DNA from: Naegleria gruberi | Taxonomy: Eukaryota | Assembly (NCBI GenBank): GCA_000004985.1 | Contig: GG738882.1 | Reading direction: 5' to 3' (one strand) | DNA length: 64,000 nt | Shown: one piece after another, positions 3,359 through 43,245 of the stretch | Numbering within the stretch: the stretch's first letter is position 1 | Layout: each line of letters begins with the position of its first letter | Position numbers and translations under genes: made by a program | Notes under the pieces: generated by a model | The model's database searches: none | What the model saw: the letters and a program-made list of their open reading frames with translations, nothing else | What the model was told of the DNA's origin: nothing

Positions 3359-4703
3359 TCATTGGCTAATTGAGGAATGTCCCATACATTGACGACAAAC
3401 ACCACATTTGCATCCACAAACTCCTTTGCTAAAAGGTTCGTTACATTGAAGATGTAAGATTTTCTTATCTTTTTCGGCAATCAAATCCTTCCAATTATTA
3501 GTAACAATTTGTTGTTCCTTTTCATTCTTGTCAATAAGATCCTTAAGGTACTTCACTTCATCTTCAAGGTGCTTCACAAATTCAGTAAGATTGCTGATTT
3601 CTCCTTTGTGATCCTTTTTCAAAGATATCATTTCACCTCGGAGGGTCTTAATTTCTTCTTGATGCTTCTTTTCTGTCTTCTCTGTTTGATCCTGTTGCTT
3701 CTTTGCCATTAACTTCATTTCACCTTGAAGTGTCTTAATTTCTTCTTGATACTTCTTTGCCATTAACTTCATTTCATCTTGGAGTGTCTTCATTTCTTCT
3801 TGATGCTTCTTTGCCATTAACTTCATTTCACCTTGAAGTGTCTTAATTTCTTCTTGATACTTCTTTGCCATTAACTTCATTTCACCTTGGAGTGTCTTCA
3901 TTTCTTCTTGATGCTTCTTTTCTGTCTTCTCTGTTTGATCCTGTTGCTGCTTTGCCATTAACTTCATTTCACCTTGAAGTGTCTTCATTTCTTCTTGATA
4001 TCTGTTCCTCTCCTTAATGTTGTCAATTCTAAATTGATCAAGAAGACTGATGAAAACCTCCATATTTGCTTGAGAGTTATGATGAGCGTTTGGTATGGTA
4101 GCTTGAAAAACACTTGCTAACTCTTCCTTTGTCTCATTAGTAACATTGGTGCTTTCATTACTAGGGGTAGTTTCTAACTCTTCCTTTGTTTCCATAGCAT
4201 CATTAGTACTATCATTAATAGGAGTTGGGGAAGTTGCTACCTCTTCCTTTGTTTCTTTTGTAGGTTCACCGTTGTTAGTGTTCATAAAGTTTGCTGGTAA
4301 TGAATTTTGGTGTTGTTGCACAATTTGAAGGAGACAATTGAACAATTTTTTCCAACTTTGCTCTTTGAAGTAGAGAAATGTGTGAGCAGACTTCAGGTTG
4401 GTTTCTAAATATTCCAAAGCAGCCTTCTCAATTTGACTATTGGTAATACCATTGTGAGAGGACGTAAACTTCCCAGTAATGGAGGATGACTAGTAAGGCT
4501 ACTTTGTGGTTAGTTTCGGAATATAAAACTTCTTTCAAAGCCTTACTTAATTCCTTTGCAGAAGAAAAATCAAACTCTAACTCTTGAGTGATTCCTAACA
4601 ACCTATGAATGATACTGAATACAATCTTACGAGTGTTACTATTATCATATAACTTGTTGATACAAGTCGAAAGCATAGCGGTGTTTTCAGTTGTGAGTTT
4701 CAT
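3359..4703 (-). CDS. Coiled-coil protein with tandem 18-aa repeats (QEEMKTLQGEMKLMAKKY-like) and a Cys-rich C-terminus; two exons (4470..4703 and 3359..4426)
   Basis: The 88-aa ORF (4437..4703) and 352-aa ORF (3359..4417) are in different frames. The 352-aa frame has no ATG; its track start is TTG. A 43-nt GTTTAC..GAG intron (4427..4469) joins ...LVILHYWE|KAALEYLETNLK... in frame. The repeats are visible at nucleotide level as a 54-nt period. Confidence 0.5.
3560..4010. repeat. Tandem 54-nt (occasionally 87-nt) coding minisatellite, about 7 copies, inside the coiled-coil gene
   Basis: The unit ...cttgaagtgtcttaatttcttcttgatacttctttgccattaacttcatttca... and its variants recur directly. Confidence 0.85.
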
Positions 4704-29246: not shown

Positions 29247-31793
29247 TTATTCACTGAGGACTTTGCAAGCCTCTTCCATTTCTTTCAACTCTGAAATGTA
29301 GGCCTTACTTTTTTCTTCCCAGTCCTTTAATGTTGCGTCTTCGACAATATCCAAATCAAAATCTCCTAAACCTGGAGTATTAAATCGATAGTAGTAAATA
29401 TCTCTTGTTTCTTTCATTAATTCCACTTGTGTTAACATTTGCTTGTGTTGTTTTTCTGAACTTAGTTGCAAATCAACGAGTCCATAAATTTGTGCCAGAT
29501 TCTTCTTTACATTTCCTAAAATACCTGTCGATTGTTTTGGCTTATTCTTTGGACTTGAATCATTGACGAAATTCAATTCTTCTTCCATTGATGCTTGAGG
29601 AGTTGTTGCATTCTCTTGACTTTTCTTTAAACCTGTACCAATAGATACAAAGATGAATTTCGAATGGTCCGGCCATATCTGCTTGGCTTCGAATGCCGAT
29701 ACTACAGAAGGATTATTATTTACACAAGCACCATCAACGAAAGCTCTCTCACCCATATTCATTTCCTTAAAATATAATGGAGCTGCTGATGTACATCTGA
29801 GAGCTTTGTAATCATGAATGAAATTTCCGTGAATTGTTCCAAGGTAAAAATCTGGATGTTTCCTCTTATTGTCTGGGAATCTCCAAGGATCTGAATAGGA
29901 TCTAAATATGAAAGGTGTAGATTCAGCATGCATTAACAAGTCATTATAAAATTCTTGTTCAACACCTTCCACAGGATTATTGGTATGAGTTCTCATAACG
30001 ACTTTCTTAGTATCTTCACTCAAAGGTGTGAGTGTTGATAGGGCAAACCACATTGGTATTCTATCTGGGCTATTATTAATGTATTTTGTACCCACAAACT
30101 TTTTGAAAAACATTTCCAATTGCTTTTCATCATACCATGCCTTTCCCTTCATGGTCATAAGAGTTTTTGTTACACTAATATTTCCTTCCATTTTGAAAAT
30201 TTGTTTTCCGAGTTGATGATAAATCTTTTTACATTCCTCACAAGTTAACCCAATTTGGAAAAGTTTGGCAAGAATTGCACCTGTCGAAGTACCACAAATC
30301 AAATCAAATATTTCACACATTTTCTTTTGCAATCTCTTTTCCATTTCCTCACAAATTGAAATCAAATTCAATCCTTTGATACCACCTCCATCCAAAATTA
30401 GAACATTAATTGCTTTGTCTTTTGGTTTAAGTGATCGGATTTGGTTATAGTCAGTTAAAGGTGGCTTTGTAATATGGTATGAAATGAATGGATTGTTTTT
30501 CAAAAATACAGGCTCTGGTATACAACCCACAGAATTTTCATTAATGATATAAGATGACAATTTCATAATAGGATCTAATTCTAATTGATAGTAGTGATTA
30601 AACCAACACTTTCTATCCAAGTTCTTCAAAAATACATAATCAAAAGGATATGTATCCTTAAAATCTGGAATTACTTCCAAAATGTTGGACAAAATCAAGT
30701 GTAACTGCTTGTATGAAACTATGAGCAGTGAGTCAGATTTCCAATTCTTCTCTTTTTTTAACTTTTTAAAAACATCTTTCGGAACCGTATATTTAAAAAG
30801 TGGGATTTCCCATTCTGGCATTTCATCAATATCGATATATTTCTTCTTCTTAGTTTGCTCTTCTTTTTCTTTCTGCAGCTCTGCATCACTGTAATCCCCA
30901 CCTAAATATTTACTTCTATAGTAATAATATACATTCCAAAACTCTTCAATTGAGGGTATTATTGTTGGGAATTCTTTAAAAATCTTTTTTGATCCTAAAA
31001 GTGAAAATATATCCATTACGAATCGTATACTATTGATAGATATTAAATCAAAATATCGAGATGAATTATATTGTGACACCACTCGCACAATTCCTTCTAT
31101 CATTACCTTGGTAGTGAGTTTTCTATCGACAGGAATTTTAAATCTCTTAGATGCTAAACTGGATTTGGACTCATGTGCAGAGGATGCAGTTTTTTCAATG
31201 AGATAAACCAATGAATCCTCAAAGAAGCATAATACTAGACCAAATATTCTCACAGCAAATCTTACATGTGAAAAGTAATCAGTTTTTAAATTGGTTACTT
31301 CTGTTATTTTGATGAGATCATCATGATCTGCCAATCTCACTGATGCACGTTTAAAATTGCCACTGTTCAAGGAGACAGACAATCTATTATCTTGATAATT
31401 CAAATTTGATGAAGAGGTAATAACTTCATCTGATAACACTTCAGGAATTGGCCTTGCTGGTAGTACTATTTTCCAATTATCAAAATCATCAACATCTAAC
31501 AGTATCAGTTCTAAATCGATAAATTGCTCCGACGAGACATCATCTGTGCAATTCAACAGGTGTGTTTTCACATCGGAGAGAAAGAATTTTGCAAAGTTGG
31601 AATAGTAATAATCGTTATTTTCAACAACTTCAAAATCGTGATCGTCCCCTTCACTAATTCTTGTCTGTAGATTATTTAATTTGTTCATCCACTTCCTCAT
31701 TACAATACTCTTCGAAACCTTTTCATAGATGGTTTCATAATCACTGAGTCCAACACTGGCAAGTGAAGATGACTGAGAACCGCTCTTGAACAT
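29247..31793 (-). CDS. Patatin-like phospholipase (iPLA2-like), 848 aa
   Basis: The patatin domain has ILDGGGIKGL (oxyanion GGGxK/RG), the GTSTG nucleophile elbow (GxSxG) and the DGACVNNNP Asp dyad. Confidence 0.8.
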   Translation of the reverse strand: MFKSGSQSSSLASVGLSDYETIYEKVSKSIVMRKWMNKLNNLQTRISEGDDHDFEVVENNDYYYSNFAKFFLSDVKTHLLNCTDDVSSEQFIDLELILLDVDDFDNWKIVLPARPIPEVLSDEVITSSSNLNYQDNRLSVSLNSGNFKRASVRLADHDDLIKITEVTNLKTDYFSHVRFAVRIFGLVLCFFEDSLVYLIEKTASSAHESKSSLASKRFKIPVDRKLTTKVMIEGIVRVVSQYNSSRYFDLISINSIRFVMDIFSLLGSKKIFKEFPTIIPSIEEFWNVYYYYRSKYLGGDYSDAELQKEKEEQTKKKKYIDIDEMPEWEIPLFKYTVPKDVFKKLKKEKNWKSDSLLIVSYKQLHLILSNILEVIPDFKDTYPFDYVFLKNLDRKCWFNHYYQLELDPIMKLSSYIINENSVGCIPEPVFLKNNPFISYHITKPPLTDYNQIRSLKPKDKAINVLILDGGGIKGLNLISICEEMEKRLQKKMCEIFDLICGTSTGAILAKLFQIGLTCEECKKIYHQLGKQIFKMEGNISVTKTLMTMKGKAWYDEKQLEMFFKKFVGTKYINNSPDRIPMWFALSTLTPLSEDTKKVVMRTHTNNPVEGVEQEFYNDLLMHAESTPFIFRSYSDPWRFPDNKRKHPDFYLGTIHGNFIHDYKALRCTSAAPLYFKEMNMGERAFVDGACVNNNPSVVSAFEAKQIWPDHSKFIFVSIGTGLKKSQENATTPQASMEEELNFVNDSSPKNKPKQSTGILGNVKKNLAQIYGLVDLQLSSEKQHKQMLTQVELMKETRDIYYYRFNTPGLGDFDLDIVEDATLKDWEEKSKAYISELKEMEEACKVLSE

Positions 31794-32172
31794 ATTGAAA
31801 ATATGGGAAATATGTGAAGATTATTGTTTGATTACTATCAATTGTTTCCAAGAAAGAGAATTGGAAAAGACTAGTTGGAGAAGAGAGGTTGTTTTTTTTA
31901 CTGTGTTGTTATTTTCTGTCCTTTCCAGCAATGTGAGGATGAAATAGAAGGTTGCACAAATAAGTGTGTAGCACTCAATAATTGGTGAAACAGTGAAAAT
32001 TCAACAAACCTTCCGAACAATTTCCTCAATCAACCATTTCATTGTGTATTATTATATTAATAAGGCAGAAATGTTTCAATGTCTCTATTATTTCCATTTG
32101 TGCCTCTTTTCAAAAAGCAATAAAGTGTTTCATCACTACATTACACTATGGAAATCAAATTCAAAAAATGGA

Positions 32173-33231
32173 ACAGAAATGTGATCCACTTTCTTTGTTA
32201 CCTATTGAATTGGCGAGAGAAATTGCATGCTTTCTGGGTGATGAGGATTTGTATTTTAATATTACATTTGTTTGTGAGTATTGGAGGCAGGAAATTGCAT
32301 TTCCGATCATTGCAGAATGCTATAGGAATTTGATGATGGAAATTAATGGTGAAATGGAGGAGAATTTGAGTAGTTTTAATTGTTTGTTTACAACAAAATA
32401 TGGCAGAAGATTTCTCAGATTTAAATTGAAAAGTTTAGTGTTTGAATATTCTCGGAATATATTTCAATATTTGATAATTAACGATGAGAAAATGATTTGT
32501 GATGTAGACGAATGGTTAGGAATGGAGAGTTTTCAGAAACTAGTTCAATGTTTTTCTAGGAGTTTTCATTCAGAACCAAGAAATGAAACAATTCTGTCCA
32601 ACTTATTAGAAAGAATTGAACGATTATTCAGTCCTTCTATCACAATTTTCATAACAAAAGATGACACTTCTTGCGACAATTCAGAGAAGGACAGTCAGAT
32701 GTTGGAAAATCCTCTTTTATTCAATGTGTTAGAGGTAATCCTGTTTCAATGCTCAATGATGATCGAACAATGTCTCCAAATTTTTCAATCAAGGAATACT
32801 ATCTGAAAGATGTATTCAAGGCACAAGTTCAATTATTTGATACGCCCAATCCTCAAGTTTACACTCGAATACCACACATGTTCTTTAGGAATTCTTCAGT
32901 ATTGCTCCTAATATTTGATGTAACTTTGAAATCTTCATTTGAGAGGATTTCTCAAATCTCAAAAAATTATGTGGAGCAATTAAGAGAGAAAAATGAGCAC
33001 CCTGAAATTATGATAATTGGAACGAAAACAGATCTTGATGAATCTTTGAGAGTTGTTTCATATAATGAAGCATTAGGATTGGCCTTTAAACAATTCGATG
33101 GTTCGCTCTATTTTGAACTATCCAACACAGATATCAAACAACCAATTTCAGTTATATGGTATTGTTTAATTCAGAGATATTTATTGCAACAGAGCTTGGT
33201 ACACATCCAAACAGATCCAACCAGACTCTAA
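32173..33231 (+). CDS. F-box-like N-terminal domain fused to a degenerate Ras/Rab-like GTPase domain; internal junction unresolved
   Basis: The N-terminus LSLLPIELAREIACFLGDEDLYF is F-box-like. The C-terminal frame (from about 32662) has a P-loop GQSDVGKSSFIQ and degenerate G3/G4 motifs LFDTPN and GTKTDL. The two parts are in different frames with no clean GT..AG intron. The 186-aa track ORF starts at TTG. Confidence 0.45.
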
Positions 33232-33681
33232 AATTGTTAACATTAAAACTATAAACCTTAAAACAACCGATTTGTTCCTTTGTTACCTTATGTCACATGT
33301 CAACTCCTCAATAATTTTCGAAATCCGTTCCGAGTCAGTAACAGAACGGTGTCGTTCAAGCTGTCCATCATCTTTAAAAAAACATCACAGTCACCAAAGT
33401 TGATTTCAAAGCAGCAAAACTCGCATTTTTGGCGCTGAGAACAACTTCAAACCATCATCACAAAAAGAGGCCAAATAAATCTCTCGAGAGCCTTTGTGGT
33501 TGTCCTATCGATATAATTGTTATTGAAAAACATCATCATCAAGAAGAGGTGTGTTGGACTGAAGAAAATTTTCACCTCCACCATCACTCCATCATCATTT
33601 GGTGTACAAATACATAGCAACAACAACAACATTTTAATTTATTAATTTATTAGTAGTAGTTTATAATAGATTGTGGATAAT

Positions 33682-36600
33682 ATGAGACAGTCCTCCGATA
33701 TTACGATAGAACAAACTGTATCTCCACTTTCGGGTGATGAATTATCTATTGATACCAATGCCAACAATGTGGTATCTTCTATGGTATCATCTCCTATTGT
33801 GTCTGATCATACCATCATGACAAGAGAAGAGATGGCAAGAAGAAGCAAAAAGTTACAAATACTATCACTTTTATGTGATAATAGTTCTAGATTTGATATT
33901 TCCTATCATGCAGAGAAACAACTAAAGGTAAGCAAATTAATTTAATTATTGGATTTACATCATCATCAATTAAAAATTAGGCTCTAGAATCGATTCTTCA
34001 AAGTATCATAACGGAGAAGTGTGAGGGCGAATGGTTGGAATTAGGATTGTATCCTTGTCTTTTTCAATATTTATGTAGTGCTAACAAAGTTAGTTTAGAG
34101 ACAATCAATCTTGTCAAGAAGGTTGTCATGTGTACAAATTTGACAGAACCACAAAACTTTTCATTATTTATGGATGTGTTTAACGATTTTGTGTATGAGG
34201 AACAAAATATAACAAATTTGTTATATTTACTTTATAGAATTCTCTTCCAAAAGGAAGATACTATTATGCAGGTTTGTTATCAACTTTTTTTGTTTTTTAA
34301 TTGAATGTGAAATAGTTGTTTGTCAATAGATCTGGTGGAAACTTTTTATTAGACATTTACAGAAAGAGACTTGTAAAAAACACGGAAACAACTTCAAAGT
34401 ATAGTCATGCCAGAAAGCCAATGGTAAAACAAAATGTCACTCAACATTTTATTAAATCTCCTCGACCAGTTGCTCCAACTCCAAGAAAGAGTGCATCTAC
34501 TTCTCTTATCAAACCACCAAAATTATATACAGCTTCATTTAATAATAGTATTAATGCAGAGATTGAAAAGAATATTAAGAATAGAAAATCAACAACAGAT
34601 TTTGGATCAATTTTTACATCACCTACAACTAGCGACAGTAATTTGATTAATCATACTCCAGGTACAGAAAGAAATACTTCTCCATCAAACATTCAAGAAG
34701 AAAAAAGTTCTCCTAGTATGACCCCTAGGGACTCCTCAATGATGTTTAAAGTACCACCACTTAAATTACCATCAAAGAGTCAGACAAATGCATCAGCAAC
34801 AAGAATTCGAAGAAGATTGGATCCTAATTTGGTCAACTTGGAAGGATTGAGACTTAGTATTGATACACTCCGTACTCAGTCAAACAATGGCAATAGTATT
34901 GAAAATGTACAGGAATTGAAGCCAAAATCAAGTGTTGAGCATTTTGATTCATTAGCTGTAAAGCTTGGTGAATTATATATTGCCAACGATCTTACCTATT
35001 TGATCCCTATTAAGAGAGATCTCGATATGCAACTTTCCCCAGATGAAACTAAACTAGAAACTGACATTCAACAAGTTTCACTTGTAACCCATGTCGAAGA
35101 TTCAACGTCACTTGAAGAAATGATATTTTCCAAGCTGTCTAATGACATTTCCGTTCACAGACATTTCATTTTGAAAATGTTACAGGCTGTATCTAAATTC
35201 CAAATTATTAGACAATTTGCTAGAAATCCTGTAAATATGTTCATGCATGATTTGAGTTGTCTTAGTTACAAGATTAATTTATTGGAAAATGAAAAGTTTA
35301 TCAATAGTGTTGAAAAGAATAATATTTCAATAATTTATGATATTCTTTCACAATACGCTGCTGATGTGGAAGCTAAATACTTTAGACTTTGGAGAATGAA
35401 TAACTCTAATAAGAGTTCTGATCCAACTAGAGATAGAACATTGAAAAAGTTCGATATTTTCTTGTGGAGATGGACTGGTATTGCCGAGCAAAGTATTGAA
35501 AATGATGACTGGGAAGAAGTACACTACCAATTACAGACACTCTCTAAATACCTTTATTCATGTGTGTCAAGAGTTCAAGCCTCTCAATGCACAGCTGTTT
35601 GCTTGGAAACTCTCCTGAAAGTTCAGGTTGCTTGTCGTAGAAAGAGCAGAGATTTCCAAGGCTCTTATAATTTTAGAGATTTGATCGAGAAATATCCAAT
35701 CATGCTTAACATTGTACATTTATTACTCGAAATTTTCGATTTTATTTGTGGTAGTCCTGAAAGACATCCTTTGTTGATGGAATTCTTCTACTTTAATTTG
35801 ATTGAGAATTTGGAGACTTTCTCTTGGTTGAGAGAATATGCCATCTTTACTCTTAGGGAGGAAGTTCATTCTAATGTAAATACCAAATCATTCCCAATTA
35901 CTCTTGAGGATAGAAGGGTAAGAGTATTGAAACACTACCAAGTTCTTATGGACTTGTTCCAAGACTTGGGAGAGGAATTTTTCTCAAAGAAGGAAGAAAA
36001 TACCCACAGCGTAAAGCAAAAGAATTTGTTGAATTATATGATGATGAACGAAACCAGTGGTGTATCTAATGGCTCTATGAATTCAAGTAGAAATGGAGAA
36101 GAAACTTTCAACATTGAAGACGATAGTGGTGTCATGAAACAATTTGACTTTTTAGTTAACCCAGTTGATGGCTTAGTTTTGGGATTCCTGACAAAGGGTC
36201 CTATCACTGAAAATTATACAGTCAAAAAACAAATGTTAACTCTTCTGGAAAAGATGTTCAGGTTGCCATATCTTCCATTTTTAAGAATCGAGTCCTATGT
36301 TAATACCTACATTAGATATCACTATTTGAATTTTGTCAAACTCTATATTGATCCAAGTATTGATCCTATTACTTTGGAAGCCTGTAAATTACACATTAGC
36401 GTCTTGATTGCATTTTCAATGAATAAGACACCTCAAATCGTCAACAGATTTTTCACTATGAAAGTTGTACGATTTTTGGCAAGAGAAATCAACTTGGAAC
36501 ACAAAATTCATGAAAAGAGACATCAAAACCAACAGAAAATTGATGCTAATGCCAAAATTAACATTAATTACGACTATAATAATGAGCATACAGATACTTA

Positions 36601-39600
36601 CACCTCAGATGATCACTCAGACACTGATGATAATAGTGAGGAAGAGGAAGAAGAAACAGCCACTGCTGAAGACATTTCTGAGGATGATAGCGATTTTGAT
36701 TCCCCAAACACCAATGCTCAAAAACCTCCTGTTAACCTTATTCCTGGTCTAAACTTGAAAACATCCACAAATACAGCATCGCCACCTATCATCAAGGCAC
36801 TGCCACTTCCAAAAACAAACTCTACTTCTACTCCAAAAGAGGAACATAAACCATCTGCAGAGACCCCAGCAACAGACACTTCAGATTTAACATCTGACTC
36901 AGATGAAAGCGATTCAGAACCTGAACCAGTTAAAAAGCCTGTTATTCCATCTTTGGGACTTGGTGGATTCAAGCTTCCTAGTGTTGGTCAACAACCAAAA
37001 GAAATTGCTCAACCAGAACCTACCACTACTGTTCCTGCCACTACTGGTTTTAAATTACCAATTACTATGCCAAAATTGGCACTTGGAGGTTCCTCAGGTT
37101 CTAATGGCCAGGAAAGCAAGCCAACTATTCCACCACTTTCATTGGCATCCAAGAATCAAGGAGTTATGGAGAACAATGGTTCCCTTATTATCAATTCGGG
37201 CAGAAAGAACAAAGACTCTGCTAGATCAAGTAAGAAGGAGGAAACAACAGAAGATTCAGATGATGATGCTGATTTTATTAACACTCCTTCGGCTCCTAAA
37301 TCTCATACTGCTATTCCAAAGCTCAATTTTTTACTTGGTGGATCCAACTATGATGCCAACGCCCAAACAAATGGAAATGCTGCTGCCACTACAAACAATG
37401 ATAGTAGCAACACTACCACTACTACAACAGTTGCTAAACCTCCTGGCTTGGCTTTAGGTTTGAATCTTGGAGCTCTCAAGACCAAAACTCCATCTAATAC
37501 ACCAACACCTGTTCCTACTACTCAACCTACTGAGCCAGTACCAAATACCACTGTTGAAGCATCCAATCCATTGAACGTATCAATGGGATCCAAGAGCTTC
37601 TTAGAAAAACTGAAATTGAACAAGTCCAAAGAAGGATTCTCTACAAGATCTGAAAGATCCGAAAATGAATTCCTTTATGAGGATGATCTTAGTGATGACG
37701 AGATTCTTTCCAGCTTGATCGAATCTACTGTTCAATTCGTTGAAAGACATGAAGCTATGAAGGGTTTGGAATCTGACGAATTGCAATTCTATGAAAAGGA
37801 GAGAAAGAACAGAAAATTATACAGAAATGATGAGTTACACGTAGCAATTTTGACCTTGTTGATGTCACTCATGATTACTGCTAACTCTACTCTTGATTCT
37901 AGATACTGTGATCAGTTCCCTCTCAATAAGAACCTTCCAAATATTCCTTTCATGCTTCACTACCACATTAATGATCTTTACAACGAGCAAATCATTCCAC
38001 TGCTCCATGATACAATTGTTTCTTACTGTAGTATGAATGATAATTTGATAGGCTTGAATATTTTACTCAGACTATTATGTGAAAAGCTCTTTGAACCAAA
38101 CCTTTATAGTGTAAAGGAGGAAAGATTGGGTGTTGGTGCCTTTGGTGATGTTTGGAGATGTAAACTCAAGTTTACTCACTCTTCTGTGAAAACAGTGGCT
38201 GCCAAGCTTCTCAAAGTTCCAAAGATGATTGAAGATGCTTGTATCTTATACACTATTTTCAATGAAATTCTTATCATGGAAAAGTTCAAAGCTGACCCAA
38301 GAATTTGTCGTATGTATGACTACGGTGTTACAAAGGACAATTACTATATTGTTATGAAGGAATACAAGTGTAGCTTGAAGACTTGGAGATTGAAGCAAAC
38401 AACTCACTTTTTACAAAATATTCCATTGTACATGAATATTTTCAAGAGAATTTTGGAATCTTACAAGTTTTTGTATGATAACAACATTAACCACTTTGAT
38501 TTAAAGTGTGACAATATTTTCTTGGAACCGTTTGATGGAGTGGATGATACCAAGTTCTTTAATCATCAATCTGACATGCCACACTTTGAACTTGTTGTTG
38601 GTGATTTTGGTGAAAGCTTTATCTATTCAAACGATGAAGAGGATGGTTACACCACTAGACACAGAGGTACTGAATGTATTAAGAGTCCAGAAATGTTAAA
38701 GATTGAAATGATGGACACCAAGAGTAAGAATTATGACAGAAGAAGAAAGGTTGGTGCTAACAGTGCCAGTGATATCTGGTCTTTGGGATGTCTTTTCTAT
38801 GAATTGTTGGCAGGTGATTTCCTTTTTGATGCCTCTGAATTTACTACTTTCTTCATGTTATTGACTGACAATAAGAAGACTTTAATTTCTCAAGAAAGAT
38901 TCTTAAAGATCCATTATAATCACTTCCTTATGGATATTTTGAGCTATATTTTAGTGAGAGATCCACTCAGAAGACCATCCATCAATGACTTGTTGCAACG
39001 TTTCTCTTTCTTTGTTAACGTAATGCCTTCTTGGCAAAAACTCAGAGAAATGACACCAGAAGACATTGAAAACGAGTTTAACAGTGCCAGAACAACCTTG
39101 ACCAGTAGAGGTATCACACCAGCAAAACCTACTCTCTCCTATCAATATGATGATTATTTACTTCATCCTTTGGAAACTCCACACACCTCAAAGACATCTA
39201 ATAGAAATGAGGCTGCAAAGGAACCATCATCTAGTGGATCTGACAAGACTAAGCCAAAGGGTGGATCAAATCAAGATGCTCTCGCTAATTATCTTTCTGT
39301 TTACAATTGGACTAAGGAAGACGTTGAATTTTACATTAAGAAGGCAACATTTATTATGAAGAATAGATTATATTTGGTATCTGACGATTTGGCATATAAC
39401 AAGCCTGTTTTGAATAAGCTTGGTATTACTCACATTGTCAATTGCTGTATTTCTACCTCAAAATCTCAATTCCCAGAAAACTTCTTCTATTTTAATCTCA
39501 AGGAACATTTATCTGAAAGCTCTCTTAAGGCATACTCGGAATATATAAAGGCATTTGAATTTGTTAGAGATGCTATCAAGAAGAGAGGTAGAGTATTAGT

Positions 39601-40648
39601 TTACAGCGGTAAGGGATTGAGTAGAAGTGGTCTTTTTGTTGTTCTTTTCCTCATGGATACATACAACCTCTCTAGCTATGAATCCTACCTCTTTGTTAAG
39701 AGCAGAAGACCTGCATTGAGACCAGAAATTCTTACACACTTTTTGCATTTCTTGCTCAAAGTTAAGCAGATGCAATCAGTTGAATCACAAAAGAAGAAGG
39801 CACTTAGCGAGCTCAAAACACTTTCTACTTCTGGATCTCTCTTCAAGAACAAATCTCCAGTCCAAGCTCTTCTCCAATCTCCTCCTCAACACAGCCACAA
39901 GAAGTTGAATAAGATTCATCAAAGTGTTTCCAAGATGCTCGAAATGAAGAAATTGAAAGAAAAGCAAGAAGCTACTAACAATGAATCATCTTCCAACTCT
40001 GCCAGCACTCCTACAAAGAAAGGAAAACAAGAAGAAACTGTCCATTGGTATAGATGTATTTGTGGTGCTTGTGTTGTTGGTGTCATGTCTCCATTCTCTG
40101 TACATTCATTCCATGCTGGAAATATTACTCACGAACACAGTCCAATCAGATGTTGGCCATCCTTCTTGCAAGAGATGAAATTATTATACTTCTATAATGC
40201 TAATCTCGTTAATATGGGATTCACTACAAAGGACAGAGTACTTCTCGATCCATTTGAGGTTCACCAACACTCAGAACCAGTACCGGACAATCAATCTGTT
40301 GGAGACTATCAAGAACCAATTTGGAAAGTTAACAAGTGTAAATATTGTGGATTTTTAGTGTTTGCAACCAAAGATAAGGATGTTGGATCACCTCCATCAG
40401 AAAAGAGTGCACAATTATCCAATCAAGGTTCTCAGGCCCAACCAACACTTAAGAGACACAAGAGCAAGGAAAGTATCTCAGTTTCTCCTGCTTCAAACGA
40501 TTTACTTTCACCAAGTGGAATATCAATTAGAGGATTTGAAATTGCTGTTAATTGTTCACTCAAGACAACCAATGTGATTGCTAAATCCAATGTTAATAAG
40601 GTTCAAGATTTGAGACCTTCTCTCTTCTTCAAGGGAGCTAATGTGTAA
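33682..40648 (+). CDS. Giant protein (about 2289 aa) with a divergent protein kinase domain, an inactive dual-specificity-phosphatase (DSP)-like domain and a Cys/His-rich C-terminal region; 3 exons: 33682..33927, 33981..34271, 34316..40648
   Basis: Introns of 53 and 44 nt (GTAAGC/GTTTGT donors, AG acceptors, phase 0) join three track ORFs. The kinase domain has GVGAFGDVWRCK, VAAKLLK, HFDLKCDNIFL (HRD replaced by HFD) and VVGDFGE. The DSP fold has LYLVSDDLAYN..LGITHIVNC....VLVYSGKGLSRSGLFVV, the HCxxGxxRS signature with Cys replaced by Ser. The tail is C/H-rich (WYRCICGACVVGV...H..H...C...CKYCGF). The central S/T/P/N-rich region is low-complexity. Confidence 0.75.
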
Positions 40649-40854: not shown

Positions 40855-43245
40855 TTAGTTTATTTCTTCTTTCAAAATTAAATCAAAATCTTGATTATTC
40901 AATTCAGAAGACTCCTCAGGTACTATTCCAGAAGATTCTCCATTTTTCCTTTTTTCAGCTTCCTTTTTCATTTGCTGCCAATTTCTTTTTCTTGTATTTG
41001 TGAACCAGTTGGCAACTTGAACATAGGTAAGACCTGTTTGTTCAGATAAATCTTGTTTTTCTTTAGAACTTGGATATGGATGTTCTATGTGATCCAAAAA
41101 CCAATCTCTCAACACATCTGTGGCATTTGAAGGTAAAAAGTGTTTTCTTTCATTTGCTCGCTTATCATCAAATGTCATTTGTCCTTGAGGGCTTGATGAT
41201 AAAACCATTTGTGAATAACCCATTGACTGATTCATTGTTTGTTGTTGACCAACATTCTGACCTGTTGATACTGAAAATGGATTGGAAATATTTGTCTGAT
41301 TCATCAAGCTTCGTTGTAATTGAGTCATAAACTCATTCATATTTTCAGTTGAGTGATTGTGCATTTCTTTTGTCGGAGAGCCAGGTCGAGAATTAGGCAA
41401 TGAGTTTGGTAATGAATTAGGTAACGAGTTAGGTAATGAATTATTTTGAGATCCAGACCTCGAAGGCAATGGACTATTTGGAGGAGCTGTTAAACCTTGG
41501 AAGAATCCTTGTTCCTTTCTTCTGTGCATTCCTGGTTGCCTCTTTGCTGTACCTGGAGAATTAACGTATGGTTTCTGGGTAGCTCCACTATCTCTACGAT
41601 GATAATTTGTTGGAGTGTTTGTTATAGGATTTGTTTCAATTGAAATTAGGGTCGATGGAGGTGAGGCATTTCCTTGAAGCATGGCTCTGAAACTCTGTTG
41701 ATAGGGAGATGGTGAAGAACTCAATGGTAAACCATCGAGTGGGCTAGAAACGAGTCTCTTCTTTTGTGGCATGTCATGTGTTGATAGTGAAATTAAGGAA
41801 GATTCATCTCCTCCACCAATTCCAATTCCACCTGCTTCCTTCACATTGAGTGCATTGAATAGTGTGAAATCACTTGGCGACTCTTCAGAATTGAAAAAAC
41901 TAGATCCAGTAAATCCTTCACTACTTCCCCCACTTGTACTGTCAGCTGTATTGAAAATATCTTCAAGACCATCATCTTTCAATGAATCTTTAACATATTT
42001 GAAAATGGAACGTTGTTGATTGGTTGGTAATTTTGTTAAAATTGATAATCCTGAAGGAACTGAAATGAGTGGAGAAGAATTTGAATGAGGACTTGAAATA
42101 ATTGGATCTGAGCTTTCAGAAATGGCATCATACTTTCTCTTTCCCTTTCCAATAAGTGTTTGTTCAATAATTGTTTGAACTGTATCTTCACTTGTTGCCA
42201 TAGACATGTCAATTCCATGTTCTGTCAATGTGCCAGTTTCAAAATCTTCACTAATACTCAAAATACCTTCAATACGTGGTGTTGATGGTGTTGTTGAGAT
42301 AAATTCATGAAAATCATTCACATCCAATTGCAAATTTGGTCCATTAACAACATGATCATCTACAATACTAGGAGAAGAAGGATACAAGAAACCTCCTTGT
42401 TGTTGTTGATGAAGTTGATAATTATTCTCATTGAGTGACTGTGTCATTACTTGTTGACCATTGATTGATTGACCAAAAGGAGTTTGATGTGTGGAATTGA
42501 AAGTAAATGTTCCTGGCATGAATACATTATTGTTTACATTCTGTTGTTGTTGATAATGCAATTGACTCAATATATTATTGTTATTATTACTATTATTATT
42601 ATTATGAATAAAACCAGAATTATTGTTAGTTAAGAAAATAGTAGGTGTTTGATGAATAGAGGCAGCATTGTTATTATTATTGGTTTGAATTGGTAAATTA
42701 TTCAATAGATAATTTTGATGATTTGAATTTGAATTTGGAGGAGAGGAAGGAGAATTGGAAGATGAAGTTGTTGTTTTCATTGTATTATTCTGCTGCTGTT
42801 GTTGATTGGTTGAGGAGGAACCATATGAATTCATCATATTATTATTCATATTCATATTCATATTCATATTATTATTATTTGTATTTGTAGTGGTTGAATG
42901 ATGATGATGTACATTATTGGATGATGAAGATGATTGATTCATCAAATTGAACAATACTTGTTGAGAGGGCAGATCATATTGAGAAGCGTAGAATAATAAC
43001 AATTGTTGCTGTTGTTGAGGTGTGAGAGATGAAATCAGTGCATGGCTCATACTAAGTGGTTGTTGTTGATTCATCATGTGCATGTACAATTGTTGCTGCT
43101 GCTGTTGATTGACTTCATATGGTTGTTGTTGTTGACCGCCCAACAAGCCTTGTTGATTGTTGTTGTACATGCGTTGTTGTTGTTGTGGTGTTTGATGAAG
43201 ATGATGATTTGATGCCGCTGCCTGATTAATATTGCCATGCATCAT
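40855..43245 (-). CDS. TALE-class homeobox transcription factor with long poly-Q/poly-N tracts
   Basis: The C-terminal homeodomain LRDWFLDHIEHPYPSSKEKQDLSEQTGLTYVQVANWFTNTRKR carries the 3-aa TALE insertion HPYP. It contains an (LPNS)4 repeat and Q/N homopolymers. The upstream 82-aa S/N-rich ORF (43245..43493) is offset by 1 nt and may be 5' coding sequence. Confidence 0.75.
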   Translation of the reverse strand: MMHGNINQAAASNHHLHQTPQQQQRMYNNNQQGLLGGQQQQPYEVNQQQQQQLYMHMMNQQQPLSMSHALISSLTPQQQQQLLLFYASQYDLPSQQVLFNLMNQSSSSSNNVHHHHSTTTNTNNNNMNMNMNMNNNMMNSYGSSSTNQQQQQNNTMKTTTSSSNSPSSPPNSNSNHQNYLLNNLPIQTNNNNNAASIHQTPTIFLTNNNSGFIHNNNNSNNNNNILSQLHYQQQQNVNNNVFMPGTFTFNSTHQTPFGQSINGQQVMTQSLNENNYQLHQQQQGGFLYPSSPSIVDDHVVNGPNLQLDVNDFHEFISTTPSTPRIEGILSISEDFETGTLTEHGIDMSMATSEDTVQTIIEQTLIGKGKRKYDAISESSDPIISSPHSNSSPLISVPSGLSILTKLPTNQQRSIFKYVKDSLKDDGLEDIFNTADSTSGGSSEGFTGSSFFNSEESPSDFTLFNALNVKEAGGIGIGGGDESSLISLSTHDMPQKKRLVSSPLDGLPLSSSPSPYQQSFRAMLQGNASPPSTLISIETNPITNTPTNYHRRDSGATQKPYVNSPGTAKRQPGMHRRKEQGFFQGLTAPPNSPLPSRSGSQNNSLPNSLPNSLPNSLPNSRPGSPTKEMHNHSTENMNEFMTQLQRSLMNQTNISNPFSVSTGQNVGQQQTMNQSMGYSQMVLSSSPQGQMTFDDKRANERKHFLPSNATDVLRDWFLDHIEHPYPSSKEKQDLSEQTGLTYVQVANWFTNTRKRNWQQMKKEAEKRKNGESSGIVPEESSELNNQDFDLILKEEIN
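41391..41441. repeat. 12-nt coding microsatellite (ttaggtaatgag-like, 4 copies) encoding (LPNS)4 on the minus strand
   Basis: Direct repeat visible in the sequence. Confidence 0.8.
42844..42870. repeat. Hexanucleotide microsatellite (attcat)n within the coding poly-N/M tract of the homeobox gene
   Basis: cat att cat att cat att cat att is visible in the sequence. Confidence 0.7.

What the first reader, a model, noticed from the sequence alone, without database searches (positions are those of the whole stretch)
32173..33231. F-box N-terminus joined to a degenerate Ras-like GTPase, with an unexplained frame discontinuity
The upstream frame encodes an F-box-like helix bundle (LSLLPIELAREIACFLGDEDLYF). 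The downstream frame encodes a small-GTPase fold with a good P-loop (GQSDVGKSS) but decayed G3 (DTPN, not DTAGQ) and G4 (GTKTD, not NKxD) motifs, as expected of a pseudo-GTPase. The parts overlap out of frame around 32655-32680, and the only candidate intron uses a weak GTCCTT donor. That leaves three possibilities: an F-box/pseudoGTPase substrate adaptor with a non-canonical intron, a sequencing frameshift, or a young pseudogene.
Basis: seen in the sequence. Interest (0 to 1): 0.5.

Follow-up and report, generated by a model that had tools for sequence, protein, structure and literature searches.

The report
Inversion-broken F-box/Rab-like GTPase gene
This is one Naegleria gruberi gene for an F-box protein with a Rab-like GTPase domain, from a family already described; its reading frame is broken by a tiny 46-base inversion with a 14-base duplication, not by an intron or a single-base error.

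Summary
Frame 2 (ATG 32168) encodes an F-box plus helical linker. Frame 1 (from about 32686 to the stop at 33231) encodes a Rab-like G domain.

The window is Naegleria gruberi. The locus carries only a truncated 153-aa model (NAEGRDRAFT_70068 / XP_002674699.1).

The two halves belong to one gene. At least six relatives of 360-407 aa in N. gruberi, N. fowleri, N. lovaniensis and environmental contigs have the same F-box to Rab-like layout.

A metagenome contig (L001) is collinear with the window and 98-99.8% identical outside the lesion. It carries the same gene as one uninterrupted 349-codon ORF.

Against that ORF, window 32631-32676 is a perfect 46-nt reverse complement. It is followed by 8 filler bases and a second copy of AGAAGGAC. 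The net gain of 14 nt destroys strand beta1 (VMKIVIEG) and shifts the frame.

The odd G3 motif (DTPN) is also present in the intact copy. The G4 motif (TKxD) is the commonest form in the family.

Herman et al. 2021 already describe these Naegleria F-box/Rab-like clades. They list this model as a putative pseudogene.

Verdict: a known family and a known pseudogene call. Only the cause of the break and the intact allele are new.

The parts
32168..32630 (+). Frame-2 coding part: start codon, F-box (about 32189-32290) and helical linker, ending ...ERIERLF. Collinear with L001 277-739.
   Evidence: Pfam F-box 19.4 bits. Family HMM 83 bits. 98.5% identical to L001 with no indels. The N-terminal family profile hits F-box proteins in the PDB.
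32631..32676 (+). Inverted block of 46 nt. It is the exact reverse complement of L001 742-787, which in the intact allele encodes SQEVSSFVMKIVIEG (linker end plus strand beta1).
   Evidence: blastn minus-strand match 46/46, E=1.8e-18, and longest exact inverted match. Residues K165 and G170 of the intact protein are invariant in the family.
32677..32684 (+). 8-nt junction filler CAATTCAG. It contains a copy of the ATTCAG repeat that flanks the block on both sides in the intact allele.
   Evidence: In L001 the direct repeat ATTCAG lies at 735-740 and 788-793.
32685..32698 (+). Direct copy AGAAGGAC-AGTCAG, matching L001 780-793. Its first 8 nt form an 8-bp inverted repeat with 32631-32638 (GTCCTTCT). 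AGAAGGAC is therefore present twice, which accounts for most of the net +14 nt.
   Evidence: Inverted repeat I3, 100% complementary. Alignment.
32686..33231 (+). Frame-1 coding part: the Rab-like G domain from ...EG-QSDVGKS to the stop codon. Landmarks: P-loop 32689-32712; switch I Thr within 32758-32784; G3 DTPN 32839-32850; G4 GTKTD 33019-33033; G5-like LSNT 33118-33129.
   Evidence: Pfam Ras E=3.9e-17. Family HMM 125 bits. 98.2% identical to L001 with no indels. Motif coordinates.
32770..33231 (+). The only annotated model at this locus: NAEGRDRAFT_70068 / EFC41955.1 / XP_002674699.1, 153 aa. It starts at MSPNF, downstream of the P-loop, so it is a truncated fragment.
   Evidence: Listed as 'Rab, putative pseudogene: yes' in Table S8 of PMC8296547.

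Best explanation
The locus is a single, intron-less Naegleria gruberi gene. It belongs to the Naegleria-specific family of F-box proteins with a divergent Rab-like GTPase domain.

In the sequenced strain, a recent micro-rearrangement has disabled it. A 46-nt piece of coding sequence was inverted: the end of the linker plus strand beta1 of the G domain. An adjacent 14 nt was duplicated. This removes beta1 and puts the G domain one frame away from the F-box part.

Shown:
- the inversion and the duplication;
- the existence of an intact allele;
- membership of the family;
- purifying selection on the rest of the gene.

Inferred (function of the intact protein of about 349 aa):
- The F-box docks on Skp1 in a cullin-1 (SCF) ubiquitin ligase.
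- The Rab-like domain acts as the partner or substrate-binding module.
- That domain keeps the P-loop, the switch I Thr and a TKxD guanine-specificity motif. It lacks the DxxG glycine, the catalytic Gln and a prenylation tail.
- It therefore probably binds nucleotide but is a poor or non-cycling GTPase.

The broken copy can at most yield a 212-aa F-box-only product with an out-of-frame tail. It is best read as a very young pseudogene or null allele, in line with the birth-and-death turnover reported for this family.
For: - Source: P0001 is 100% identical and is named N. gruberi.
- One gene: relatives of the N-terminal part include six proteins of 360-407 aa with a Ras-family domain, five of which also reach the Pfam F-box cutoff (P0007 does not). 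They come from N. gruberi, N. fowleri, N. lovaniensis and environmental contigs.
- Intact allele: P0019/L001 is a 349-codon single ORF. It is collinear with window 31879-34178. Outside the lesion it is 98.2-99.8% identical, with no indels in the coding parts.
- Inversion: window 32631-32676 is the reverse complement of L001 742-787, 46/46, E=1.8e-18. An 8-bp inverted repeat and an extra ATTCAG/AGAAGGAC copy sit at the borders.
- Polarity: L001's junction reads ...SSQEVSSFVMKIVIEGHSDVGKSS.
  - It gives the beta1 pattern hhKxhh[DE]G; K165 and G170 are invariant in the family.
  - It raises the family-HMM score of the window protein from 207 to 218 bits.
  - It lets Pfam Ras match from profile position 1 instead of 6.
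- Recency: dN/dS between window and L001 is 0.21 (8 non-synonymous, 9 synonymous changes; binomial p=0.0024).
- Fold: the AlphaFold model of P0019 has pTM 0.76, with an N-terminal helical domain, a disordered linker and a G domain. The best solved matches are Rab7, Rab11, Rab27 and Rap.
- Literature: Herman et al. 2021 describe the F-box/Rab-like clades and disrupted members, and flag XP_002674699.1 as a putative pseudogene.
Against: - No transcript or read-level data could be examined. Whether the lesion is homozygous in strain NEG-M, whether it is expressed, and whether it is a rare cloning artefact all remain untested.
- GT and AG dinucleotides bracket the lesion, so removal by splicing is not formally excluded.
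- F-box binding to Skp1 and nucleotide binding are inferences from motifs only.
- The exact mutational mechanism is unresolved. A single staggered-break event or template switch does not reproduce the 8-nt filler; an inversion plus a 14-nt duplication with 1-2 nt of junction slop does.
Confidence: 0.82

Rival explanations
1. The rearranged segment is removed as a 56-nt GT...AG intron (32631-32686). That would give a 335-aa protein...ERIERLF-K-GQSDVGKSS..., so the gene would still make an F-box/pseudo-GTPase.
For: - The GT at 32631 and the AG at 32685-86 restore one open frame.
- The family-HMM score is 207.1, as good as any other repair of the window sequence.
- 56 nt lies within the size range (41-67 nt) of the short candidate introns in this window, e.g. 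33928-33980.
Against: - The intact allele has no intron here and codes through the segment.
- The 'intron' is inverted coding sequence.
- The donor GTCCTT differs at positions +3 to +5 from the GTAAG/GTATG donors of the candidate introns in the window. That scan only looked for such donors, so this is weak evidence.
- The product would lack beta1, including the family-invariant K165. It scores 11 bits below the intact junction.
- No such protein is on record.
Confidence: 0.05
2. The inversion and duplication are an artefact of cloning or assembly of the reference genome, and the real NEG-M gene is intact like L001.
For: - Everything else in the gene is intact and under purifying selection.
- Only one assembly of this strain could be examined.
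Against: - An assembler does not produce a 46-nt inversion with an 8-bp inverted repeat and a 14-nt duplication inside a read-length stretch. This is inference; the reads were not available.
- Disrupted members are reported as common in this family in two Naegleria species.
Confidence: 0.1
3. A single-base sequencing error or frameshift mutation separates the two frames.
For: - Inserting one base anywhere in 32662-32688 gives an open 354-codon frame scoring about 207 bits.
- I initially saw apparent motif matches (PSITIFITKD, FLRQFREG) to paralogs.
Against: - The alignment to the intact allele shows no single-base indel. It shows a 46-nt inverted block and a net gain of 14 nt.
- The apparent motif matches lie inside the inverted block or filler and were spurious.
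Confidence: 0.01
4. Two separate genes lie side by side: a small F-box protein and a small GTPase.
For: The genome annotation has a stand-alone 153-aa model for the 3' part and none for the 5' part.
Against: - There is no ATG before the P-loop in frame 1.
- The 153-aa model lacks the P-loop.
- The intact allele and six relatives encode both parts in one ORF.
Confidence: 0.02

Closest known systems
Naegleria divergent, lineage-specific Rab-like paralogs with an N-terminal F-box ('RabX' genes such as RabX13/RabX14; Herman et al. 2021, BMC Biol 19:142, Additional file 4 and Table S8)
   Same: - Same architecture: F-box, conserved helical extension, then a divergent Rab-like domain.
- Same genus.
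- Paralog P0009 is XP_002672998.1, listed as 'Rab, F-box' and as the 1:1 ortholog of N. fowleri RabX14c.
- This locus's model, XP_002674699.1, is listed as 'Rab, putative pseudogene'.
   Different: - The paper gives no cause for the disruption at this locus.
- It records no F-box for this locus.
- It reports no intact allele.
- I did not determine which of the three clades this gene belongs to.
TbFRP of Euglenozoa (FYVE, F-box, Ras-like GTPase; Tb927.7.3790; PMC3593210)
   Same: - An F-box lies N-terminal to a Rab-related G domain in one polypeptide.
- By my own knowledge, it is found in a lineage related to Naegleria (Discoba).
- A link to ubiquitin-dependent turnover has been proposed.
   Different: - No FYVE domain is present here.
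- The paper reports that searches of the N. gruberi genome found no FRP ortholog.
- I could not obtain the TbFRP sequence, so sequence relatedness was not tested.
Rab40 (Rab plus SOCS box, a cullin-5 adaptor) and RhoBTB (atypical Rho plus BTB domains, a cullin-3 adaptor)
   Same: A small-GTPase domain is fused to a cullin-RING ligase adaptor motif. In RhoBTB the G domain is atypical. This comparison rests on my own knowledge. RhoBTB is also reported in Naegleria.
   Different: - The adaptor motif is different: an F-box, implying Skp1/cullin-1.
- The domain order is the opposite of both Rab40 and RhoBTB.
- There is no sequence relationship beyond the G domain.
- This is an analogy of mechanism, not membership.

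Membership tests
F-box proteins (Pfam PF00646/PF12937) | Sequence match to the F-box profile above the curated cutoff | tested here: inconclusive
   - Window protein: 19.4 bits against a cutoff of 20.5.
- Intact allele: 18.2 bits.
- Eight of 10 relatives pass, at 20.7-29.2 bits.
- The family profile hits 13 solved F-box proteins among 14 hits; the best is FBH1 at 5.9e-6.
F-box proteins (Pfam PF00646/PF12937) | Binding to Skp1 and assembly into an SCF ligase | not testable with these tools
   Needs a pull-down or co-expression with Naegleria Skp1.
Rab family of small GTPases | G domain most similar to Rabs | tested here: met
   - Best PDB sequence hits are Rab11 (5.9e-14), Rab27 and Ypt7/Rab7.
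- Best Foldseek hits are Rab7, Rab11 and Rab5, with Rap close behind.
Rab family of small GTPases | C-terminal cysteine prenylation motif (CC, CXC or CAAX) | tested here: not met
   The protein ends ...LVHIQTDPTRL, with no Cys in the last 20 residues, in both the window and the intact allele. It is therefore Rab-like, not a canonical Rab.
Rab family of small GTPases | RabF motifs (IGVDF, KLQIWD, RFRSIT, YYRGA; motif definitions from my own knowledge) | tested here: not met
   - In this gene they are degenerate: MSPNF, QVQLFD, VYTRIP, FFRNSS.
- Relatives P0006 and P0010 keep IGVDF, QLWD, RFRSIT and YYRGA.
- The family is therefore Rab-derived, and this member is highly divergent.
Catalytically competent switch GTPase | G1 P-loop GxxxxGK[ST] | tested here: met
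   GQSDVGKS in the window (32689-32712) and GHSDVGKS in the intact allele.
Catalytically competent switch GTPase | G3 DxxG glycine followed by the catalytic Gln | tested here: not met
   - The motif is DTPNPQ, with Asn in place of Gly and Pro in place of Gln. It is identical in the intact allele.
- No family member has the Gln. Some keep DxxG, e.g. WDQCGPE.
Catalytically competent switch GTPase | G4 [NT]KxD guanine-specificity motif | tested here: met
   - The motif is GTKTD.
- TKxD is the commonest form in the family, in 4 of 7 distinct full-length members (window, P0006, P0007, P0010); the others read TRSD, LKSD and TMND.
- That TKxD is the functional form in Rac-type GTPases is my own knowledge.
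Catalytically competent switch GTPase | Intact beta1 strand leading into the P-loop | tested here: not met
   - In the window, beta1 is replaced by inverted sequence, and Pfam Ras matches only from profile position 6.
- It is met in the intact allele: VMKIVIEG, matching from position 1.
Naegleria F-box/Rab-like clades (Herman et al. 2021) | Conserved N-terminal extension with an F-box, plus a divergent Rab-like domain, with close relatives only in Naegleria-like organisms | tested here: met
   - The family HMM matches both halves.
- All named relatives are Naegleria species; the rest come from unnamed environmental contigs.
- XP_002674699.1 appears in their Table S8.
TbFRP orthologs | N-terminal FYVE domain | tested here: not met
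   No FYVE hit was found in either the window protein or the intact allele.
Spliceosomal intron at 32631-32686 | Removed from the transcript; absent from, or non-coding in, orthologs | tested here: not met
   - The homologous stretch of the intact allele is coding and in frame.
- Removal from RNA is not testable here.
Pseudogene or null allele | A disabling lesion relative to an intact close homolog | tested here: met
   A 46-nt inversion and a net gain of 14 nt, against an allele 98-99.8% identical outside the lesion. Loss of expression or function was not tested.

The most novel reading that the evidence does not exclude
The micro-inversion happened to create a GT...AG-bounded segment that the spliceosome removes. 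A coding lesion would then have been converted on the spot into a new 56-nt intron. The strain would make a beta1-less F-box/pseudo-GTPase, a caught-in-the-act case of intron gain by intronization of rearranged coding sequence.
Probability: 0.04. Interest if true: 0.55.

Novelty: already known. Interest (0 to 1): 0.2.

Why it matters
It matters mainly as a correction and a small case study.

- **Annotation.** The locus should be annotated as a disrupted 349-codon F-box/Rab-like gene, not as a 153-aa "predicted protein".
- **Family turnover.** The cause of the break, a 46-bp inversion with flanking duplication, together with an allele about 98% identical that is still intact, gives a dated snapshot of the birth-and-death turnover proposed for this Naegleria family.
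- **The family itself.** GTPase domains fused to an SCF adaptor motif are biologically interesting because they suggest GTPase-linked ubiquitination. This family was already published, however, and nothing here tests that function.
- **A caution on method.** Inverted coding sequence stayed open and even mimicked family motifs, so motif matching across a frame break can mislead.

Tried and rejected
1. **Single-base frameshift model.** I restored one base at each position and scored the results with a family HMM. All repairs scored 202-208 bits, so the test did not discriminate.
2. **Apparent motif matches.** I read 'PSITIFITKD' and 'FLRQFREG' as conserved family motifs that pinned the shift to 32665-32668. 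Both lie in the inverted block or filler and were spurious.
3. **Enumeration of introns.** Fifteen GT/GC...AG candidates keep the frame open. None is supported by the intact allele.
4. **Exact-sequence look-ups.** I looked up three spliced models and the raw ORF products in the 15-billion-protein collection, hoping for transcript-derived calls. None is on record apart from the 153-aa model.
5. **Look-ups of encoding contigs.** The neighbouring patatin gene and P0001 gave nothing.
6. **First word-index search.** The N-terminal part alone found nothing. The exhaustive representative search was needed.
7. **Metagenome scans.** Two exact-pattern scans of JGI metagenome contigs for further alleles found nothing.
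8. **Programmed -1 frameshifting.** I rejected this by inspecting the sequence: there is no slippery heptamer at 32660-32672, and a TGA in frame 1 at 32662-32664 confines any slip to a few bases.
9. **Single-event mechanisms.** A single template switch or a staggered break does not reproduce the 8-nt CAATTCAG. The mechanism is left unresolved.
10. **Origin of L001.** A literature search for project PRJEB11402 found no paper.
11. **Donor consensus.** My scan for donor sites in the window was restricted to GTAAG/GTATG-type donors, so it cannot be used as a test.

Full report
**1. What is in the sequence**

The region has about 33% G+C, with long ORFs and few interruptions. Frame 2 has an ATG at 32168 and stays open to a stop codon at 32804-32806. 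Frame 1 is open from 32665 to the stop at 33229-33231.

Pfam finds a borderline F-box at residues 8-41 of the frame-2 product: E=0.001 and 19.4 bits, against a cutoff of 20.5. It finds a clear Ras-family domain in the frame-1 product at E=3.9e-17. That match starts only at profile position 6, so strand beta1 is missing. No ATG precedes the P-loop in frame 1. The observation therefore stands, with a corrected start of 32168.

**2. Source and annotation**

The frame-1 product is 100% identical to a 153-aa "predicted protein" of Naegleria gruberi: EFC41955.1 / XP_002674699.1 / NAEGRDRAFT_70068. That model begins at MSPNF, downstream of the P-loop. The F-box part is not in the protein collection at all.

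**3. One gene, one family**

An exhaustive search with the N-terminal 163 residues found ten relatives.
- Six of them are 360-407 aa long and carry a C-terminal Ras-family domain; five of these also reach the Pfam F-box cutoff, P0007 being the exception.
- The named ones are N. gruberi EFC42161.1 and EFC40254.1 ("rab family member"), N. fowleri FDP41_002877 and N. lovaniensis C9374_002756.
- The rest come from environmental assemblies.

An HMM built from these relatives matches the window in two frames. Frame 2 covers model positions 7-144 (83 bits). Frame 1 covers positions 165-370 (125 bits). A profile of the N-terminal region hits essentially only solved F-box proteins.

**4. What the frame break really is**

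My first model was a single-base deletion near 32665-32668. It rested on apparent motif matches to paralogs. That model was wrong.

A profile search then returned P0019, a 349-aa protein about 93% identical to the repaired window protein. It is encoded as one uninterrupted ORF on a 2,269-nt metagenome contig, L001.
- L001 is collinear with window 31879-34178.
- Outside a 61-nt stretch it is 98.2-99.8% identical, with no indels in the coding parts.
- Within that stretch, window 32631-32676 is the perfect reverse complement of L001 742-787: 46/46, E=1.8e-18.

After the inverted block the window has 8 nt, CAATTCAG. It then has a second, direct copy of AGAAGGAC followed by AGTCAG (32685-98). AGAAGGAC therefore occurs both inverted (32631-38) and direct (32685-92), as an 8-bp inverted repeat. 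The ATTCAG motif occurs three times, against twice in L001, where it flanks the block. The net gain is 14 nt, which moves the downstream sequence from frame 2 to frame 1.

**5. Polarity**

In L001 the junction reads ...ERIERLFSSQEVSSFVMKIVIEGHSDVGKSSF. Three results show that the L001 orientation is ancestral and the window carries the derived lesion.
- VMKIVIEG fits the family's beta1 pattern. K165 and G170 are invariant across the family alignment.
- Substituting this junction into the window protein raises the family-HMM score from 207 to 218 bits. That HMM was built without either sequence.
- Pfam Ras then matches from profile position 1.

**6. The intron idea**

The G of the donor GT is the last base of the left-flank ATTCAG and is also the first base of the 46-nt inverted match; the T is the next base of the inverted block. 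The acceptor AG lies in the duplicated flank.

The intact allele codes through the homologous stretch, so this is not an ancestral intron. If it were spliced, the product would lack beta1 and the invariant Lys. No such product is on record. Without RNA data I cannot exclude splicing, and I give it about 5%.

**7. Age and selection**

Between the window and L001, the two coding parts differ by 8 non-synonymous and 9 synonymous changes. This gives dN/dS = 0.21, with binomial p=0.0024 against neutrality. No other disabling mutation is present. The gene was therefore under constraint until very recently, and the lesion is young or strain-private. Alternatively, and less likely, it is a cloning artefact.

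**8. The "pseudo-GTPase" features**

- The intact allele has the same DTPN in place of DTAG and also lacks the catalytic Gln. This is a native trait, not decay that followed the break.
- Across the family, some members keep DxxG (WDQCGPE) and some have degraded P-loops (GR, GKN). None has the Gln.
- GTKTD is not decayed. TKxD is the commonest G4 form in the family, in 4 of 7 distinct full-length members. By my own knowledge it is also the standard Rac-type G4.
- The G domain is closest to Rabs by sequence and by fold. It lacks a prenylation tail, and in this member the RabF motifs are degenerate.

**9. Likely mechanism of the intact protein (inference)**

The F-box would dock to Skp1 and cullin-1. 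The Rab-like domain would serve as the recognition module. It probably binds nucleotide but is GTPase-deficient. Functional analogues are Rab40 (SOCS box, Cul5) and RhoBTB (BTB, Cul3). The closest architectural analogue is TbFRP of Euglenozoa, which has an additional FYVE domain; its authors found no N. gruberi ortholog.

**10. Prior knowledge**

Herman et al. 2021 (PMC8296547, Additional file 4 and Table S8) already report the following.
- Three Naegleria-specific divergent Rab-like clades have a conserved N-terminal extension identifiable as an F-box.
- Some members carry disrupting mutations, described as "birth-and-death evolution".
- The authors suggest "GTPase-dependent ubiquitination".
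- XP_002674699.1 is listed as Rab, putative pseudogene.

The family and the pseudogene call are therefore known. What is added here is the molecular cause of the break, the link of the upstream F-box ORF to this locus, and an intact allele.

**11. Verdict**

The feature is real but ordinary: a recently broken member of a published family. Interest is low, at 0.2.

Noticed in passing
window 32168-33231 compared with 33232-34178 (L001 alignment): Between the window and the near-identical contig L001, this gene's coding sequence is more diverged (1.5-1.8%) than the downstream intergenic region and the next gene (0-0.4%). This fits fast evolution of the family.
   Followed up: partly
window 29247-31793 (-): An 848-aa ORF with a patatin-like phospholipase domain (Pfam E=1.5e-18). 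This exact product is not on record in the assembly index.
   Followed up: partly
window 33684-40648 (+): A large gene. A first exon (33684-33927) is followed by a likely 53-nt GTAAGC...TTAG intron (33928-33980), which is 100% conserved in L001. A 2110-aa ORF then combines a protein kinase domain (E=2e-31) with a dual-specificity phosphatase domain (E=4e-19). The exon joins were not verified.
   Followed up: partly
window 40855-43245 (-): A 796-aa ORF very rich in Gln and Asn. By eye, it ends in a homeobox-like WFTNTRKRNW motif. It explains the GC-skew spike of +0.34 at 42-44 kb. No Pfam scan was run.
   Followed up: no
window 51080-51152 (+): A single tRNA-Arg (ACG) gene lies between protein-coding genes.
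   Followed up: no
window 3696-3920: A tandem repeat of a 54-nt unit, 4.1 copies at 93% identity (or 108 nt x 2.1 at 99%). It is probably an in-frame coding repeat.
   Followed up: no
relatives P0007, P0008, P0009 (alignment A1): Several intact paralogs have degraded nucleotide-binding motifs. The P-loop reads GR or GKN instead of GK[ST], and the DxxG motif is lost. N. fowleri P0006 and environmental P0010 keep the P-loop, the DxxG motif and the RabF motifs. The family seems to be drifting towards pseudo-GTPases repeatedly.
   Followed up: partly
P0003, P0004, P0005 and N. lovaniensis C9374_003954: Some relatives are 179-229 aa F-box-only proteins that end where the G domain should begin. They may be truncated models or further disrupted loci like this one.
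   Followed up: no
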